A DNA stretch of 64,000 bases, taken from an uncultured Chloroflexia bacterium (GTDB taxonomy: Bacteria > Chloroflexota > Limnocylindria > Limnocylindrales > CSP1-4). The notes under the pieces are model-generated. The model worked only from the letters and a program-made list of their open reading frames with translations. It did not search any database and was not told the origin of the DNA. Made by a program: the position numbers and the translations under genes. Positions 53,160-60,243 of the stretch are shown here, piece by piece; position 1 is the first letter of the stretch; each line of letters opens with the position of its first letter. The DNA lies in the NCBI GenBank assembly GCA_963704325.1, contig OY969885.1, positions 1,383,188 to 1,447,187 on the forward strand, written 5' to 3'.

Positions 53160-53163
<4 letters not shown>
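52546..53163 (-). CDS. CopC-domain copper-binding protein with PT/AS-rich linker and C-terminal membrane anchor
   Basis: Signal peptide, then [13 protein letters not shown] (CopC N-terminal His motif). Thr/Pro/Ala/Ser-rich linker. C-terminal TM helix plus RNRR. Confidence 0.75.
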
Positions 53164-55187
<2,024 letters not shown>

Positions 55188-55229: not shown

Positions 55230-56096
55230 GTGACACCACGCACCGTGGGTGGCTATAGTTCGGCCGTGGACAACAACGATTCGGTTGCCCAACTGGTCAA
55301 GCTGGGTCTGACCAGCTACGAAGCGAAAGCGTATTTGACGCTGATCCTGCGCGACTCGTTCACGGCGGCGCAGGTAGCGCGCCAGTCGGGCCTGCCGCGC
55401 CAGCGGATCTATGACGTGCTGGGCAGCCTCGTCCAGAAGGGGCTTGCTGCGGCGCGACCGGGCAACGTTGTCAAGTACGCCGCGACACCGCCTGAGCTCG
55501 CCATCGACCAGTTGCTGACCTCACACCGCGAGCAGCTGGACCGGATGGAGCGCGACGCACGGACCATGGCCAGCAGCCTCAAGCCCGCATTCGACGCCGG
55601 CCAGGAGCACACCGACCCACTCGAGTACATCGAGGTGCTGCGCGATCGGCGCGCGATCAACGAGCGCTTCACCGAGCTCCAGGCGGGGGTCAAGAAGGAG
55701 ATCCTCGTCTTCACCAAGCCGCCCTACGCCACCCCGCCGCAGGAGAACGTGGAGGGCCTCGAGGTGATCCAGTCGCACGAGGCACGTTCGCTGTACGAGT
55801 ACTCGATCTTTGACGATGCGGCCGTCGCGCGCGGCGTCCAGCGCTTCGTGGACGCCGGCGAGGACGCGCGCTTCGTGCCCAGCCTGCCCCTGAAGCTCGT
55901 CATCATCGACGAGACGATCGTGATGTTCGGCATGGAGGACCCGGTCGCGGGCAGCTCGGAGCTGACCATCGTGGTCGTCGAGCACCAGTCGCTGGCCAGG
56001 GTGCTCAAGACGGCCTTTGACGCGATCTGGGCGACGGGTCTGACGTTCGAGCAGGCGCACGATCTGCTCAGTGCGCGAGAGGCAACGACCGCCTGA
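55230..56096 (+). CDS. TrmB-family transcriptional regulator
   Basis: N-terminal wHTH (AQLVKLGLTSYEAKAYLTLI...SGLPRQRIYDVLGSLVQKGL) plus a C-terminal TrmB domain. GTG at 55230 chosen; 55266 is an alternative. Confidence 0.7.
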   Translation: MTPRTVGGYSSAVDNNDSVAQLVKLGLTSYEAKAYLTLILRDSFTAAQVARQSGLPRQRIYDVLGSLVQKGLAAARPGNVVKYAATPPELAIDQLLTSHREQLDRMERDARTMASSLKPAFDAGQEHTDPLEYIEVLRDRRAINERFTELQAGVKKEILVFTKPPYATPPQENVEGLEVIQSHEARSLYEYSIFDDAAVARGVQRFVDAGEDARFVPSLPLKLVIIDETIVMFGMEDPVAGSSELTIVVVEHQSLARVLKTAFDAIWATGLTFEQAHDLLSAREATTA

Positions 56097-56234
56097 GCTA
56101 AGACGGCTTTGAGATGCTTTTGAAATCTGCCACTCGACAGAGTGCAACTTGCGCTCTTACCGGTAAGGAACCACTATGCGTGGTGTCGCGCAAGTAGAGG
56201 CTTGTCGCGCACATCGAGTGAGGTTCCGTCCCGA

Positions 56235-58076
56235 ATGGCACTCAACCGGTCACGCCGCCTGGCCCGTTCCGTCGTGGGCCTGGCAGGAGTCGCGCTTCTC
56301 TTGACGGCGATGCTGCCCGCGGCCAGTCTGGCTGCGCCGGTGAGCGGCCAGCGCTACATGGTCGTCTTCAAGGGCGGCTATGCGCTTGATGGCAGCTATG
56401 CGCTGGGCAAGGGCTATGCCCTGGTGACAGAGGAGCAGACGGCTGCGCTCGACGACACCTACGCGCTGGGCACCGACTACGCGCTCTACGCGCTCAAGAA
56501 GACGTACGCCCTCCTGCGCCAGTACGCCCTGACCGACGATTACGCGCTTGCGGACGACTACGCGCTGTTCGGCGAGTACGCACTCAACTCGGGCTACGCG
56601 CTCGACACCGATTACGCGCTGGGCAACGGCTATGCGCTGGCCCAGGCGACCGCCGGCTACGCCCTCGACAGCTCCTACGCGCTGCTCGATGACAGCGCCG
56701 CCTACGCGCTGGGTGACAACTACGCCCTGCTGGATGCGTACGCCCTGGACGAAAACTACGCGCTTGCGCGCGACTATGCGCTCGAGGTTGTCAGCCTTGC
56801 CGGCGGGACGGTGACGGCCGACCTTACGCGCCAGATCGGGGTGATGATCGTCGACTCCAAGAACTCGACTTTCGCGTCACTGCTGCGCCAGTACGCGCTG
56901 GTCGATTACGTAGGCCAGGACTTCGGCGTCGACATCTTCAAGGGCTTCAATGAGACCTTCGCCCCAGCGCCGGCTCCCAACCCAACGCCCGGTGCGCTCG
57001 ACCCGCTCGAGGAGGCGCAGTGGAGCATGGAGCTCATTCGCGCGCGAGCAGCACACGCCTATGGCACCGGCGCGCGAGTGGACGTTGGCGTACTCGACAC
57101 GGGCATTGACGGCAACCATCTCGACTTCCGCAACCGCTCCGGCGTCTCCGGCGTGGACTGTGCGCGCGGCGCCGACTTCACCGCCGAAGGGCCGGGCGTG
57201 GGCATCCCCGCAGCGTGCGTAGACAACAACTTCCATGGCACGCACGTGGCCGGCATCATCGGCGCCCGGCGCAACGGACTGGGCGTGGTCGGCGTAGCGC
57301 CCAACGCCACGCTCGTGCCGATCAAGGTGTGCGACGGCGACGGCCACTGCTACGTCAGCGACACGGTTGAGGGCATCACCTATGCCGGCGACCTGGGCCT
57401 TGATGTCGCGAACATGAGCTTCTTCGTGGACGACGACGACTTCCAGCAGTCGACCGCATTCAAGTGCCAGAGCAACGACACCCAGCGGGCGTACCGCGTC
57501 GCAGTCGAGCGAGCGCTGGCCTACGCGCGTGGCGAAGGCGTCAGCCTCGTTGCCGCGCTGGGCAACTCGGATACGGATCTCGCCGATCCGGAGGATCGCG
57601 GCGGCCGTAACTGCCGCACCGTGCCGGCCCAGTCGCCCGGCGTGATCGGCACCGGGGCCCTTGGTCCCGACAGTGAGAAGGCTGCATATTCCAGCTACGG
57701 GCTGGGCTGGGCGGACGTGTCCGCACCGGGTGGCAACGAGGCGATCGGTGAGGGCAATTGCCTGACCGAGGTCCTCTCAACTCTGCCCGGCAACAGCTAC
57801 GGCTGCATCCAGGGAACGTCGATGGCCTCGCCCCACACGACTGGCGTGGTGGCGCTCATCGTGGGCCGCTACGGCAGCGGCGACGGCCACGGCGGGCTGC
57901 GCTGGGCACCGGACAAGGTCAGCAAGAAGCTTGCCCAGACGGTGGTCGACATCGGCAAGAAGGGCAACGACGAGTGCTTCGGCAAGGGCCGAATCGACGC
58001 CCTGCGCGCCGTGCGCAACCAGACCTCGTATCTGCGCGACACGAGCGCGCCGATGTGCCCCGAATACACGGAATGA
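56235..58076 (+). CDS. S8-family (subtilisin-like) serine peptidase whose propeptide carries ~20 tandem xxxYAL hexapeptide repeats
   Basis: Signal peptide (MALNRSRRLARSVVGLAGVALLLTAMLPAASLAAP). The propeptide begins YMVVFKGG and ends ...LRQYALVDYV. Catalytic D (VLDTGID), H (HGTHVAG), S (GTSMASPH). Confidence 0.85.
   Translation: MALNRSRRLARSVVGLAGVALLLTAMLPAASLAAPVSGQRYMVVFKGGYALDGSYALGKGYALVTEEQTAALDDTYALGTDYALYALKKTYALLRQYALTDDYALADDYALFGEYALNSGYALDTDYALGNGYALAQATAGYALDSSYALLDDSAAYALGDNYALLDAYALDENYALARDYALEVVSLAGGTVTADLTRQIGVMIVDSKNSTFASLLRQYALVDYVGQDFGVDIFKGFNETFAPAPAPNPTPGALDPLEEAQWSMELIRARAAHAYGTGARVDVGVLDTGIDGNHLDFRNRSGVSGVDCARGADFTAEGPGVGIPAACVDNNFHGTHVAGIIGARRNGLGVVGVAPNATLVPIKVCDGDGHCYVSDTVEGITYAGDLGLDVANMSFFVDDDDFQQSTAFKCQSNDTQRAYRVAVERALAYARGEGVSLVAALGNSDTDLADPEDRGGRNCRTVPAQSPGVIGTGALGPDSEKAAYSSYGLGWADVSAPGGNEAIGEGNCLTEVLSTLPGNSYGCIQGTSMASPHTTGVVALIVGRYGSGDGHGGLRWAPDKVSKKLAQTVVDIGKKGNDECFGKGRIDALRAVRNQTSYLRDTSAPMCPEYTE
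56373..56785 (+). repeat. about 20 tandem 18-nt units (nnn-nnn-nnn-TAC/T-GCG/C-CTN) encoding x-x-x-Y-A-L, in-frame inside the S8 peptidase propeptide
   Basis: Read directly: GGYALDGSYALGKGYAL...YALGTDYALYALKKTYALLRQYALTDDYALADDYALFGEYALNSGYALDTDYALGNGYAL...YALDENYALARDYAL. Confidence 0.8.
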
Positions 58077-58254: not shown

Positions 58255-58857
58255 GTGCCAGCCCGGGCAGCCGCCCTCATCCTCGCCGCCGGCCGGTCGT
58301 CGCGATTCGGCTCAAACAAGCTGCTCGTGGAGCTTCGCGGCCGGCCGATCCTGCAGCATGTGCTCGACGTCGTCGCCGCGGCACGGCTGCGGCCGGTCGT
58401 GGTCGTGACCGGACCGGACGGCGCGGCGGCATACGCTGCGCTGAAGTGGCGCGCCGAGCAGCTCGTCACCAACCCAAGTCCGGAACGCGGCCTGTCCACG
58501 TCACTCCAGGCTGGCCTGGCCGCGCTGACCGACTCGGACGCCCAGCGTGCGCTCGTGCTGCTCGCCGACCAGCCGCTGCTGTCCAGGGCGCAGATCGGAG
58601 CGATCCTGGCCGAGCCCATGGATGACGCGCGGCCCATCGTCGTGCCGCGCTACGGCGGCAGGCAGGGCAACCCCGTGTTGCTCGAGCGACCTGTGTGGCA
58701 GCTGGCGGCCGGCCTGAGCGGCGACCGGGGCATGGCCCAGGTCTTCCGGACGCGGCCCGACCTTGTCCGCTACGTGGACGTCGCCGGCGTCAATCCGGAC
58801 ATCGACACGCCGGCCGACCTGGCCGCCCTGGCCGCATCGGTCAACGGTGCAGGATGA
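58255..58857 (+). CDS. MobA-like NTP transferase domain protein (MocA-type molybdenum cofactor cytidylyltransferase)
   Basis: N-terminal LILAAGRSSRFGSNKLL (MobA/MocA GxxGxR-like NTP-binding motif). ~200 aa. GTG start. Confidence 0.7.
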   Translation: MPARAAALILAAGRSSRFGSNKLLVELRGRPILQHVLDVVAAARLRPVVVVTGPDGAAAYAALKWRAEQLVTNPSPERGLSTSLQAGLAALTDSDAQRALVLLADQPLLSRAQIGAILAEPMDDARPIVVPRYGGRQGNPVLLERPVWQLAAGLSGDRGMAQVFRTRPDLVRYVDVAGVNPDIDTPADLAALAASVNGAG

Positions 58858-59767
58858 GCCCTATTCGGCCGTACGGCGGGCGCGGATCCGTGTAGACCTT
58901 CAACCGCTCGTCCTCCTCGGACGTGACGGACAGGTCCCACAGCCGGTTCTGGGCCTCAAACGAGACCTCGGAGAGCTGCGGCCAGCGCTCCAGCATGGTG
59001 TGCCCGATCTCGTTGACGAGGTGCTGGATGGAGAGGCTGACGAAGCGATGGAAGACGGCCGCAGCGAGATCGGCCACCTGCTCACCCGAGACGTACTGCG
59101 CGTGCTCGGACGCGACGCCCGTCTGCGCGTCCGAGTAGCGCCAGCCGATGTCCATGTGGACGTACAGCGGCCGGTCGCGTCGCTCAGGCAGGGTGGTGTA
59201 CTCGTCGCGCGCGAAATCGGCGAACGCCGAGCCGGTGACCTTCATCAGCTGCAGGCCCTGTCGCCCCGCGGCCAGGTCGGACAGCTGGACGCCACCCTCC
59301 GCAGCGCGCCCCAGCTCCAGTCGGGCATTGGAACGGTCGCCGTGCTGTCGCTCGAATAGCACGCTGCTCGACTCGAAGCCACTGCCATCCTGGGACGGGA
59401 CAAGGGCCGGTTCGAACGGGATCTCGACGCCGTTGACGCGCAGGCGCTCCATGTGCGGGTACGTGTCGAGGAAGCGCCGGCCGATGAAGAGCAGCCACTG
59501 CTCCAGGGTGGCCCCGTCGAATGCGAGCGACTCGCGGTGGATGAAGTTCTTCATCGTGTCCGTGGCGACCACAAGGCGGTTGTCGCCCTCCGTGTAGGCG
59601 GACATGAAGGCGGTGCCCAGGACCTGGATCTCGATCGAGGCGGCGAGAAGCGTGTTGGACCTGCCGCTGAAGCTCGATTCAGGGATCGCGCCCACGCCGC
59701 TCAACGGCCGGGCGTAAGTGCGGTACGTGGAAACGTCCGCCTTGCCGTAAGAGATCTCGGCTTGCAT
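58841..59767 (-). CDS. factor-independent urate oxidase (uricase)
   Basis: YGKADVSTYRTY...RLVVATDTMKNFI...SIQHLVNEIG...WPQLSEVSFEAQNRLWD...YTDPRPPYG aligns along its length with bacterial uricases (e.g. Bacillus PucL). Confidence 0.85.
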   Translation of the reverse strand: MQAEISYGKADVSTYRTYARPLSGVGAIPESSFSGRSNTLLAASIEIQVLGTAFMSAYTEGDNRLVVATDTMKNFIHRESLAFDGATLEQWLLFIGRRFLDTYPHMERLRVNGVEIPFEPALVPSQDGSGFESSSVLFERQHGDRSNARLELGRAAEGGVQLSDLAAGRQGLQLMKVTGSAFADFARDEYTTLPERRDRPLYVHMDIGWRYSDAQTGVASEHAQYVSGEQVADLAAAVFHRFVSLSIQHLVNEIGHTMLERWPQLSEVSFEAQNRLWDLSVTSEEDERLKVYTDPRPPYGRIGLILHR

Positions 59768-60243
59768 CAGGCCTCCTGGGACACGTTCATCTTGACCAGT
59801 CGGTCACGCGCGATGGCGAAGACATCGTTCAGCGCCCGGTCCAGCTCTGCCTCCCGGTCGGCGTCAATGCGCGACTCCAGGAAATCGGCGATCTCCGATC
59901 GCGGCCGGCCCGCGACGTAGACCACGAAACGGAACCCGAAGCGCTCCTCGTACGCGTCGTTCAGGCGTGCCAGGCGGGCGGCCAGGGCTGCATCGGCGGT
60001 GTCAGGAAGCCGGTCGTAGCCCTGCTCGCGGAACGAAGTGGCAGACACGGTGTCCGGATCCGCGCCGATGCGAGGGTGTCCGTCGATCAGCTCGATGCGC
60101 TCCTCCTCGGGCAGAGTGGCGGCGTGCTGCTCCGCGCGGTCGAGCAGCTCCGTGAGCGTCGCTGCCCGCTCGTCCCGCAGGCGATCCACGAAGCGCGGCG
60201 CGTTCTCGAACAGTAGTGCCAGTCTCGCCTCCATCGAACCCAT
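59767..60243 (-). CDS. uraD: OHCU decarboxylase (2-oxo-4-hydroxy-4-carboxy-5-ureidoimidazoline decarboxylase)
   Basis: LIDGHPRIG motif and the helical OHCU decarboxylase pattern. The stop overlaps the uricase start. Confidence 0.8.
   Translation of the reverse strand: MGSMEARLALLFENAPRFVDRLRDERAATLTELLDRAEQHAATLPEEERIELIDGHPRIGADPDTVSATSFREQGYDRLPDTADAALAARLARLNDAYEERFGFRFVVYVAGRPRSEIADFLESRIDADREAELDRALNDVFAIARDRLVKMNVSQEA

What the first reader, a model, noticed from the sequence alone, without database searches (positions are those of the whole stretch)
56235..58076. Subtilisin-like protease whose propeptide is expanded by about 20 tandem xxxYAL hexapeptide repeats
- Between the conserved propeptide start (YMVVFKGG) and end (EVVSLAGGTVTADLTRQIGVMIVD...LRQYALVDYV) sits a ~135-aa array of (D/G/N)-x-x-Y-A-L units.
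- Each unit is encoded by an 18-nt repeat with a near-invariant TAC/T-GCG/C-CTN core.
- The unit resembles the propeptide's own terminal QYAL segment, as if that motif had been amplified.
- Propeptides are both intramolecular chaperones and inhibitors. A repeat array of Tyr-Ala-Leu pseudo-substrate motifs could act as a multivalent inhibitor, a sacrificial substrate or a slipped-strand phase-variable spacer.
- I am not aware of a described S8 propeptide with this architecture.
Basis: seen in the sequence. Interest (0 to 1): 0.7.

Follow-up and report, generated by a model that had tools for sequence, protein, structure and literature searches.

The report
Protease prodomain with YAL repeat array
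A secreted subtilisin-type protease of a soil Chloroflexota bacterium carries 21 Tyr-Ala-Leu motifs inside its removable folding-helper segment, held in a strict three-residue register across an undescribed protein family, which suggests an unknown structural or control module rather than junk or an assembly error.

Summary
The CDS at 56235-58076 (+) encodes a 613-aa pre-pro S8 protease. Between strand b1 and helix a1 of its I9-like prodomain lie 135 aa (nt 56379-56783) holding 21 Y-A-L triplets, mostly 6 aa apart.

It is neither an assembly artefact nor a phase-variable tract. More than 100 homologues from independent assemblies (Chloroflexota, Ca. Limnocylindria) carry 14-30 units at orthologous positions. 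The YAL codons differ only by synonymous changes, and the longest exact DNA repeat is 13 nt. Relatives form a series of 0, 1-2, 4-10 (YAL) and 8-15 (YAV) units, so a hexapeptide of the b1-a1 loop was expanded.

New findings:
- All 1722 YA[LV]-to-YA[LV] distances in 105 proteins are multiples of 3 aa, while the nearby linker varies freely.
- YAL positions are 94% identical and spacers 43%.
- Proline is 0.3% of spacer residues but 10% of linker residues.
- The third residue (L or V) covaries with a YA[LV] inside the I9 core.
- AlphaFold gives no confident monomer fold.
- No Pfam, NCBIfam, PDB or literature match exists.

Best reading (inferred): a register-constrained, turn-rich repeat module of the zymogen, discarded on activation. 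The pseudo-substrate idea is the main rival and is untested. This is a new variant of a known kind.

The parts
56235..58076 (+). Complete CDS of the pre-pro S8 protease (613 aa plus stop codon)
   Evidence: ORF list and translation. Full-length homologues at 54-82% identity.
56235..56333 (+). Signal peptide, aa 1-33. The likely signal-peptidase site A-S-L-A|A-P is inferred, not predicted by a dedicated tool.
   Evidence: Sequence MALNRSRRLARSVVGLAGVALLLTAMLPAASLA. AlphaFold models helix 5-25. A crude cleavage-site scan was ambiguous between aa 31 and aa 33.
56334..56378 (+). N-terminal segment and strand b1 of the I9-like prodomain (APVSGQRYMVVFKGG)
   Evidence: AlphaFold strand 39-45. Y41, V43, V44 and G47 are nearly invariant.
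56379..56783 (+). Array of 21 Y-A-L triplets (aa 49-183). Most are xxxYAL hexapeptides. It is inserted between b1 and a1 of the prodomain. Net charge is -16 and there is no proline.
   Evidence: pLDDT is 29-40 in two AlphaFold runs.
56784..56921 (+). Rest of the I9-like prodomain core (end of a1, b2, b3, a2, b4; aa 184-229)
   Evidence: AlphaFold elements H179-188, E191-197, E203-208, H213-218 and E223-228 with pLDDT about 90. Foldseek match to pro-subtilisin E 3whi over 422 columns.
56892..56900 (+). The 22nd YAL (aa 220-222), at the a2/b4 junction of the prodomain core. It is in the same frame of 3 as the array, and its third residue covaries with that of the array.
56922..57017 (+). Proline-rich linker between the prodomain and the mature domain (aa 230-261). 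It contains the unmapped autoprocessing site(s).
   Evidence: pLDDT 55-74. Its length varies freely among homologues. Proline is 10% of its residues.
57018..58073 (+). S8 catalytic domain (aa 262-613). Catalytic residues: D288 (57096-57098), H334 (57234-57236), oxyanion N444 (57564-57566), S529 (57819-57821). It has ten invariant Cys.
   Evidence: PF00082 at 9.5e-47. Alignment to subtilisin BPN' places D32, H64, N155 and S221. Invariant columns.
55266..56096 (+). TrmB-family transcriptional regulator directly upstream on the same strand (start codon uncertain). It forms a conserved gene pair with the protease and is the probable regulator.
   Evidence: PF01978 at 7.5e-21. The same pair occurs in L221-L224, and a TrmB gene lies beside the S8 genes in L002 and L003.

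Best explanation
What it is (well supported). This is a secreted pre-pro subtilisin-type (S8) endopeptidase of a Chloroflexota (Ca. Limnocylindria-like) bacterium. In its N-terminal I9-type intramolecular-chaperone prodomain, the solvent-exposed b1-a1 connection has been expanded by tandem duplication of a hexapeptide into 21 units of (3 variable, Gly/Asp-rich residues + Tyr-Ala-Leu). The expansion is old, is kept by purifying selection on the protein, and defines an undescribed family with 4 to 30 units.

How it most likely works (inferred). The array is not a loose linker. It is a register-dependent repeat module made of short Y-A-L strands joined by tight turns. It probably becomes ordered only in a particular state, such as oligomerisation, Ca2+ binding or docking on a surface or polymer. 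It exists only in the zymogen, because it is removed and degraded with the prodomain. Its job is therefore to act before or during activation, for example by holding, masking or positioning the inactive pro-enzyme after secretion. Prodomain degradation then releases the active protease. Expression is probably controlled by the adjacent TrmB-family regulator.
For: Shown by tool results:
- S8 domain with intact triad.
- I9-like fold around the array and a match to pro-subtilisin E.
- Family-wide conservation, with 14-30 YAL in about 90 full-length homologues and 4-15 YAL or YAV in more distant clades.
- Array-less relatives have proto-units in the same loop.
- YAL positions are 94% identical and spacers 43%, while the catalytic domain is 68% identical.
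- Differences among the YAL codons are only synonymous, and the longest exact DNA repeat is 13 nt.

Evidence for a regular structure rather than a flexible linker:
- All 1722 inter-motif distances in 105 proteins are multiples of 3 aa.
- The 17 distinct array lengths are all 0 mod 3. The 13 distinct lengths of the neighbouring linker in the same proteins spread over all three classes.
- Proline is 0.3% of spacer residues against 10.1% in the linker, and the few prolines sit at spacer position 2.
- Spacer preferences are turn-like: x1 is D/G/A in 69% of units and x3 is G/D/N/S/T.
- The motif follows an invariant big-small-big pattern.
- The third residue of all units covaries with the YA[LV] of the I9 core: 94 YAL/YAL, 16 YAV/YAV, 0 mixed.

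Precedent: hexapeptide stacks form oligomer-dependent triangular beta-prisms in tailspikes and MyRF (PMC8326128). Similar ([ST][AS]SYA[LVI])n arrays occur in phage tail-fibre proteins, which are trimeric as a class.

Neighbourhood: the TrmB-S8 gene pair is conserved.
Against: - AlphaFold2 gives pLDDT 29-40 for the array in two runs. That is what true disorder would also give.
- No Hexapep or other repeat model matches, and no solved structure matches.
- The 3-residue register could arise partly from the mutation mechanism, because slippage between the 9-nt YAL codon triplets creates only in-register indels.
- The L/V covariation may reflect a single evolutionary event, since the tree is unresolved.
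- No binding partner, oligomeric state or metal dependence was tested or can be tested here.
- No conserved neighbouring gene suggests a partner.
Confidence: 0.4

Rival explanations
1. Pseudo-substrate or sacrificial-substrate array. Each Y-A-L is a P3-P1-like site for the protease itself. The array would then act as a multivalent competitive inhibitor, or as a set of preferred cleavage sites that times prodomain destruction and therefore activation.
For: - The array lies in the part of the protein that S8 enzymes are known to degrade on activation (established I9 biology).
- Subtilisins prefer hydrophobic P1 and small P2. The residue equivalent to BPN' G166 at the bottom of S1 is Val or Thr, which predicts a shallow pocket suited to Leu, Val or Ala (interpreted from published G166 mutagenesis recalled from memory).
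- Proline is never found at spacer position 1, which would be P1'.
- Some homologues have extra YAL near the prodomain/mature junction.
- The low AlphaFold confidence fits an accessible region.
Against: - Cleavage sites need neither a 3-residue register nor 94% invariance of all three residues.
- The position homologous to the classical autoprocessing site reads F-G-x-K-x-F followed by a conserved Pro. It is not YAL-like.
- No S1-pocket difference separates the YAL clades from the YAV clades.
- Nothing was measured.
Confidence: 0.25
2. Multi-copy peptide precursor fused to its own protease. The prodomain is cut in steps, possibly tripeptide steps given the frame of 3, and releases about 22 YAL-containing peptides that have a signalling or other role.
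For: - Every YA[LV] in the whole pro-region, including those in the I9 core and the linker, lies in one frame of 3.
- The most frequent distance from a plausible signal-peptidase site to the first unit is 15 aa.
- Multi-copy precursors processed by S8 enzymes exist in eukaryotes, for example yeast alpha-factor with Kex2 and ustiloxin YAIG cores (established knowledge).
Against: - No modifying enzymes, transporters or receptors are conserved nearby.
- Spacer tripeptides end in D, G or S, which are poor P1 residues.
- The signal-peptidase frame test was only 65% in frame and is confounded by conservation of b1.
- The acidic NMSFFVDDD run that might act as an N-terminus ruler is also present in array-less relatives.
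- The catalytic domain resembles endopeptidases.
Confidence: 0.08
3. Functionally neutral low-complexity expansion in a permissive surface loop, tolerated because the prodomain is discarded.
For: - The b1-a1 loop is solvent-exposed in I9 folds.
- Unit number varies from 4 to 30 among clades, and some lineages show recent duplications such as DEAYALGAGYAL in the P0076 group.
- Relatives without the array are apparently intact proteases.
Against: - YAL is 94% conserved while only synonymous codon differences accumulate.
- Array length is nearly constant and the units are orthologous across 54-82% identity.
- No out-of-register indels occur, although the adjacent linker has them.
- Proline is depleted 33-fold.
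Confidence: 0.1
4. Assembly artefact or slipped-strand phase-variable tract.
For: - It is repetitive coding DNA.
- A few database entries are frameshifted fragments of the family.
Against: - The array is present in more than 100 independent assemblies, including 0.9-2.9 Mb contigs.
- The DNA units average 61% identity, and the longest exact repeat is 13 nt.
- One member is found with identical sequence on 35 contigs, and all members of its 90% cluster have the same length.
Confidence: 0.01

Closest known systems
Subtilisin propeptide / peptidase inhibitor I9 (intramolecular chaperone of S8 proteases; e.g. pro-subtilisin E, PDB 3whi; pro-Tk-subtilisin)
   Same: - N-terminal position.
- Predicted b-a-b-b-a-b fold.
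- A Y-x-V-V-F first strand and a V-x-Y-V-G-x-D last strand.
- Structural match of prodomain plus catalytic domain to 3whi.
   Different: - No Pfam I9 hit by sequence.
- A 135-aa repeat array interrupts the b1-a1 connection.
- A Pro-rich linker of about 30 aa separates the prodomain from the mature domain.
Left-handed beta-helix hexapeptide repeats (Pfam PF00132 Hexapep, [LIV]-[GAED]-X2-[STAV]-X)
   Same: - A 6-residue period.
- An aliphatic residue followed by D/G/A in 69% of units.
- Turn-rich and Pro-poor.
   Different: - Tyr occupies the position that should hold a small residue.
- Steps of 3 and 9 residues are tolerated.
- No Hexapep match even at E = 10.
- AlphaFold does not build a beta-helix.
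Triple beta-helix / triangular beta-prism stalks of trimeric phage tailspikes and MyRF, built from stacked hexapeptide repeats (PMC8326128)
   Same: - Hexapeptide stacking units.
- An oligomer-dependent fold that monomer modelling would miss.
- Association with an intramolecular chaperone that is later cleaved off.
   Different: - A different chaperone (the S74 ICA domain, C-terminal).
- No evidence that this zymogen trimerises.
- No sequence similarity was tested or found.
([ST][AS]SYA[LVI])n arrays of phage tail-fibre-like proteins
   Same: - The same YA[LVI] core with a 3-residue polar spacer.
- Mostly 6, 12 or 18-aa spacing.
- These proteins score against the array part of the profile.
   Different: - Ser/Thr spacers instead of Asp/Gly.
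- Non-multiples of 3 occur.
- They sit in fibre shafts, not in protease prodomains.
- Probably convergent.
RTX nonapeptide beta-roll (GGxGxDxUx) of secreted proteases and toxins
   Same: - Gly/Asp-rich turns alternate with a short hydrophobic strand.
- The period is a multiple of 3.
- Ordered only on Ca2+ binding.
- Found in secreted proteases.
   Different: - A 9-residue unit.
- C-terminal position and type I secretion context.
- No match to this sequence.
- Ca2+ dependence here is pure conjecture.
Acidobacteriota AprX-like S8 peptidases with a C-terminal (GDG + 3 hydrophobic)n tail
   Same: - S8 proteases carrying an array of hydrophobic triplets alternating with Gly/Asp turns.
- Some members read GDGYA[LIV].
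   Different: - A different S8 lineage.
- C-terminal position.
- The usual triplet is IVI or VMV rather than YAL.
- Two members carry a precomputed Hexapep hit.

Membership tests
Peptidase S8 (subtilase), Pfam PF00082 | Profile match above the gathering score | tested here: met
   160.1 bits against a cut-off of 21.8, covering aa 281-585.
Peptidase S8 (subtilase), Pfam PF00082 | Catalytic Asp-His-Ser triad in that order, plus the oxyanion Asn | tested here: met
   D288, H334, S529 and N444 align to BPN' D32, H64, S221 and N155. They are invariant in 121 family members.
Peptidase inhibitor I9 / subtilisin propeptide | Sequence match to the Pfam I9 model | tested here: not met
   No family other than PF00082 at E up to 1 for the whole protein, or up to 10 for the pro-region alone.
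Peptidase inhibitor I9 / subtilisin propeptide | A b-a-b-b-a-b fold packed on the catalytic domain, N-terminal to it | tested here: met
   AlphaFold elements E39-45, H179-188, E191-197, E203-208, H213-218 and E223-228 at pLDDT about 90. Top Foldseek hit is unprocessed pro-subtilisin E 3whi, 422 columns, TM(target) 0.83. This is a prediction, not an experiment.
Peptidase inhibitor I9 / subtilisin propeptide | Autocatalytic removal and inhibition of the cognate enzyme | not testable with these tools
   Needs biochemistry.
Hexapep left-handed beta-helix (PF00132) | Profile match and the [LIV]-[GAED]-X2-[STAV]-X signature | tested here: not met
   No hit at E up to 10. Tyr occupies the small-residue position. 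AlphaFold builds no beta-helix.
Type VII secretion mycosin (TIGR03921) | Score above the curated cut-off | tested here: not met
   143.2 bits against a cut-off of 278.75.
Lantibiotic leader-peptide-processing protease (a name some sources give to homologues) | Location in a lanthipeptide gene cluster | tested here: not met
   No lanthipeptide or other RiPP genes in the window or in seven homologous loci. The neighbours are TrmB, a DsbH-like thioredoxin, XdhC, MobA and uricase.
Contingency locus / phase-variable simple-sequence repeat | A long run of identical or near-identical DNA units prone to slippage, with copy number varying among close relatives | tested here: not met
   The longest exact repeat is 13 nt and the units average 61% identity. 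All three members of one member's 90% cluster are 618 aa, and its exact sequence occurs on 35 contigs.
Tripeptidyl-peptidase-like S8 (TPPII-type ruler) | Acidic residues that block S4 and bind the substrate N-terminus, specific to enzymes with tripeptidyl activity | tested here: inconclusive
   An invariant acidic run, NMSFFVDDD, follows the strand equivalent to BPN' 125-127. It is equally present in relatives without the array, and its geometry could not be examined.

The most novel reading that the evidence does not exclude
The prodomain array is a genetically encoded multi-copy peptide precursor fused to its own processing protease. Because every YA[LV] from the mature N-terminus to the prodomain/mature linker lies in one frame of three residues, stepwise processing would liberate about 22 Tyr-Ala-Leu-containing tri- or hexapeptides per activated enzyme molecule. 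That would be a bacterial counterpart of Kex2-processed multi-copy precursors, with enzyme and precursor in one polypeptide.
Probability: 0.08. Interest if true: 0.85.

Novelty: new variant of a known kind. Interest (0 to 1): 0.55.

Why it matters
S8 prodomains are the textbook intramolecular chaperones and inhibitors. Known variation among them consists of small loops or extra N-terminal extensions, not a conserved 135-aa repeat module.

This family shows that the I9 scaffold can carry a large accessory element that is selectively maintained and bound to a fixed register. That element exists only in the zymogen, which implies a layer of control over secretion, latency, localisation or activation that has not been described.

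The same hydrophobic-triplet-plus-turn hexapeptide design recurs in phage tail fibres and in another S8 lineage. None of the three has a model in Pfam or a solved structure. Solving one of them could define a new repeat fold that AlphaFold2 does not predict in monomer mode.

The bacteria concerned (Limnocylindria, Chloroflexota) are abundant in soil and fresh water and are poorly studied, so their main secreted proteases also have ecological interest.

Tried and rejected
- **, my own error.** It returned unrelated DNA repeats. No taxonomic census of GTDB genomes could be made, and taxonomy rests on source names.
- A search with the array alone returned only frameshifted fragments of the same family. 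It did not even return the known full-length homologues, so it cannot exclude other contexts.
- It was useful only as a sample.
- I looked for a YAL-like classical autoprocessing site six residues after the I9 end. The site reads FGxKxF followed by a conserved Pro, so the cleavage site stays unmapped and no motif match is shown.
- I looked for substrate-pocket differences between YAL and YAV clades. None appeared at the G166, 152-156 or 125-126 equivalents. Differences at positions 62, 99/101 and 218 cannot be interpreted.
- I tried to count independent L/V switches. The neighbour-joining tree splits the YAV proteins into three groups, but bootstrap support is negligible, so the number of events is unknown.
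- I tested the frame from a predicted signal-peptidase site to the first unit. It was 65% in frame with a crude predictor, which is inconclusive.
- The acidic run NMSFFVDDD as a possible tripeptidyl ruler is also present in array-less relatives, so it gives no support.
- PDB sequence searches with the array and with a phage SSSYAL array found nothing meaningful.
- Literature searches found no description of such a prodomain.
- A second AlphaFold run on the prodomain alone, with 27 close homologues, gave no improvement.
Full report
**1. The observation**

The window holds one long ORF, 56142-58076 (+). The ATG at 56235 gives a 613-aa protein. Homologues share this start and the same kind of signal peptide.

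The protein contains 22 Tyr-Ala-Leu triplets where 0.5 are expected from its composition. Twenty-one form one array at aa 49-183 (nt 56379-56783). The 22nd is at aa 220-222. Sixteen of the 20 intervals in the array are exactly 6 aa. The others are 3, 9, 9 and 15 aa.

A pattern of four YA[LVIMF] at an 18-nt period matches 8 times in the window and never in 100 shuffles. No other frame or gene in the window has such a cluster. Tandem Repeats Finder barely detects the array because the DNA copies have diverged.

**2. What the protein is**

- Pfam finds only Peptidase_S8, at aa 281-585 with E = 9.5e-47.
- The closest solved relatives are true subtilisins. BPN' scores 6e-29 and is about 33% identical.
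- D288, H334, S529 and the oxyanion N444 align with BPN' D32, H64, S221 and N155. All are invariant in the family.
- Ten Cys residues are invariant, which fits an extracellular enzyme.
- AlphaFold2 with an 83-sequence alignment models the catalytic domain and an I9-type prodomain with high confidence. The prodomain elements are b1 39-45, a1 179-188, b2 191-197, b3 203-208, a2 213-218 and b4 223-228.
- The best Foldseek match in the PDB is unprocessed pro-subtilisin E (3whi), aligned over 422 columns.

The array therefore lies in the connection between b1 and a1 of the prodomain. In I9 folds that connection faces solvent (established knowledge of the fold). Pfam's I9 model does not match by sequence.

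**3. Not an artefact and not phase-variable**

A database search returned 2922 related S8 proteins. About 90 of the best 120 are full-length proteins of 590-675 aa at 54-82% identity, with 14-30 YAL each. Where sources name them, they are called Chloroflexota, Ca. Limnocylindria or Limnocylindrales.

The window protein itself is on record on a 2.43-Mb contig. Homologues lie on 2.9-Mb and 0.87-Mb contigs. One member (P0076) occurs with identical sequence on 35 contigs, and all three members of its 90% cluster have the same length.

Within the window array, ten different 9-nt strings encode YAL and every difference is synonymous. The 18-nt units average 61% identity, with 39% in the spacer part. 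The longest exact repeat is 13 nt. This is an old repeat held at the protein level. It is not a slippage-prone tract.

**4. Origin**

Relatives share the same I9 core and the same linker motifs, and together they form a series:

| Stage | Example | Sequence or unit count |
|---|---|---|
| No repeat | P0212, P0158 | e.g. YNVVFEGTATTSGFAVDGGRDAALALVTSAGG |
| Proto-units | P0143 | DGTFAL-GGSYAL-NHDAAL |
| Four to ten YAL | P0094 | GSYAL-DGSYAL-GGNYAL-NHDSAL |
| Eight to fifteen YAV | P0096, P0110, P0136, P0171 | - |
| Long YAL clade | the window protein | 14-30 units |

In the long clade the first three and last three units are the best conserved. Some lineages show recent internal duplications, such as DEAYALGAGYAL.

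**5. Constraints on the array (new here)**

(a) In 72 long-clade proteins the YAL positions are 94% identical pairwise and the spacers 43%. The spacers match the inter-domain linker (44%). The catalytic domain is 68% identical.

(b) In 105 proteins all 1722 distances between successive YA[LV] are multiples of three residues (3, 6, 9, 12, 15, 18). Among 81 long-clade proteins the array has 17 different lengths (84-165 aa), every one 0 mod 3. The roughly 37-aa linker of the same proteins has 13 lengths spread over all three residue classes (36/26/19). The YA[LV] in the I9 core and the occasional extra copies in the linker are in the same frame.

(c) Proline is 0.3% of 6192 spacer residues and 10.1% of linker residues. 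The few prolines sit at spacer position 2.

(d) Spacer preferences are position-specific and turn-like. Position x1 is D, G or A in 69% of units. Position x3 is G, D, N, S or T.

(e) The third motif residue is uniform within a protein and matches the YA[LV] at the a2/b4 junction of the I9 core: 94 YAL/YAL, 16 YAV/YAV, none mixed. The tree is too poorly resolved to say how many independent switches this represents.

(f) AlphaFold gives pLDDT 29-40 for the array, both in the full protein and in the isolated prodomain.

(g) The array has net charge -16 and a pI of about 4.

**6. Interpretation**

Points (a)-(e) are hard to reconcile with a neutral expansion or a freely flexible linker. They are also more than a set of subtilisin cleavage sites would need, because such sites tolerate Y/F, L/M/F and A/S exchanges and any spacing.

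They fit a regular arrangement of three-residue big-small-big strands joined by three-residue turns, in which only in-register changes are allowed. Slippage between the 9-nt YAL codon triplets would itself favour in-register indels. That bias does not explain the total absence of 1-2 residue indels, which the adjacent linker accumulates, and it does not explain the loss of proline.

AlphaFold's failure may mean that the array orders only in an oligomer, with a ligand or metal, or on a surface. Triangular beta-prisms built from stacked hexapeptides in trimeric tailspikes and MyRF are a precedent for an oligomer-dependent fold (PMC8326128).

The prodomain is removed on activation (established for S8/I9). 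Whatever the module does must therefore concern the zymogen: holding, masking, positioning or timing. This mechanistic step is inference, and I give it about 0.4.

Three things fit it: the shallow S1 pocket predicted from Val/Thr at the BPN' G166 position (interpretation from memory of the G166 mutagenesis literature), the absence of Pro at the would-be P1', and the location in a segment destined for degradation. Against it, the site homologous to the classical autoprocessing site is not YAL-like, and no pocket difference tracks the L/V switch.

A peptide-precursor reading (about 0.08) is suggested only by the single frame of three running through the whole pro-region. It lacks any supporting neighbour genes.

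**7. Context**

A TrmB-family regulator (PF01978, 7.5e-21) lies directly upstream on the same strand. The same pair is found in four further long-clade loci. TrmB genes also sit inside S8 gene clusters in a short-YAL locus and a YAV locus. One locus lacks it.

The other neighbours are shared synteny without an obvious link: a DsbH-like thioredoxin, XdhC, a MobA-like transferase, uricase and OHCU decarboxylase. No RiPP-type enzymes are present.

**8. Comparison with what is known**

By membership this is an S8 protease with an I9-like prodomain (by predicted fold, not by sequence). It is not a mycosin (below cut-off). It does not sit in a lanthipeptide cluster, although some sources use that name for homologues. 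It is not a Hexapep protein.

Nothing in Pfam, NCBIfam, the PDB or the searched literature covers the array. Sources label family members only as S8 family serine peptidase or hypothetical protein.

A profile search of 1.84 billion cluster representatives found 185 matches at E up to 0.001. They consist of members and fragments of this S8 family, together with many large phage-tail-fibre-like proteins with ([ST][AS]SYA[LVI])n arrays.

A metagenome pattern scan also revealed an Acidobacterial S8 lineage with a C-terminal (GDG + three hydrophobic residues)n tail that sometimes reads GDGYA[LIV].

These are probably convergent uses of the same design of a hydrophobic triplet plus a turn.

**9. Verdict**

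The feature is real, conserved and undescribed. It is a new variant of a known kind: an S8 zymogen with a novel prodomain-embedded repeat module. Its function is unknown experimentally. The strict three-residue register is the most surprising property and remains unexplained. Interest is 0.55.

Noticed in passing
window 55266-56096 (+), start uncertain; also L221 4066-4896, L222 4422-5252, L223 4983-5816, L224 5022-5852, L002 3494-4297, L003 11674-12507: A TrmB-family regulator (PF01978 plus a weak DUF7436 match, about 276 aa) forms a conserved gene pair with the repeat-bearing S8 protease. In two loci it sits inside clusters of two or three S8 genes. It is probably the protease regulator. TrmB proteins usually sense sugars.
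   Followed up: partly
L206 4535-6460 (+); L134; L119; L149; proteins P0273-P0392: An unrelated AprX-like S8 lineage of Acidobacteriota (Pyrinomonadaceae) ends in a C-terminal array of hexapeptides, GDG plus three hydrophobic residues. Examples are GDGIVIGDGIVV and, in some members, GDGYAI or GDGFAL. A conserved ..GD..(C)M(R/K) end follows. Two members carry a precomputed Hexapep (PF00132) hit.
   Followed up: partly
L132 3283-5130 (+) and 716-3316 (+); L101, L116, L143, L160, L171, L191; proteins P0133-P0270: Many large Ser/Thr-rich proteins from freshwater and marine metagenomes carry ([ST][AS]SYA[LVI])n hexapeptide arrays. One hits tail collar fibre families (phrog_523, 2e-35) immediately after its array. 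No Pfam or PDB match covers the arrays, so this looks like an undescribed fibre-shaft repeat.
   Followed up: partly
window 56548-56814 (+), alternative frame inside the array; proteins P0121, P0123, P0124: The +1 frame of the array reads TRCS(A/T)STRST... and is listed as an 88-aa ORF. Public databases contain frameshifted fragments of family members that switch into this frame. This indicates sequencing or assembly errors, or pseudogenes, in this repeat in some data sets.
   Followed up: partly
window 57018-58073 (+): The catalytic domain has ten invariant cysteines (C309, C328, C366, C372, C411, C460, C509, C524, C581, C608). It also has an invariant acidic insertion, NMSFFVDDD-FQ-STEFKC, right after the strand equivalent to BPN' 125-127. 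This could be a Ca2+ site or a substrate-cleft modifier. It is present in array-less relatives too.
   Followed up: partly
window 53160-55187 (-), 58255-58857 (+), 58841-59767 (-), 59767-60243 (-): The flanking genes are a DUF255/DsbH-like thioredoxin fused to a six-hairpin glycosidase-like domain, a MobA-like NTP transferase, uricase and OHCU decarboxylase. The purine-catabolism block is syntenic in all long-clade loci examined, but it shows no evident link to the protease.
   Followed up: partly
L152 197-2869 (+): An 891-aa multi-pass membrane protein, which looks like an RND/MMPL-type transporter judged by eye only, has four perfect DDDYAL units in a soluble loop.
   Followed up: no
window 56097-56234: The 139-nt intergenic region between the TrmB gene and the protease start was not analysed for operators or promoters. 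A GAGG lies about 14 nt upstream of the ATG.
   Followed up: no
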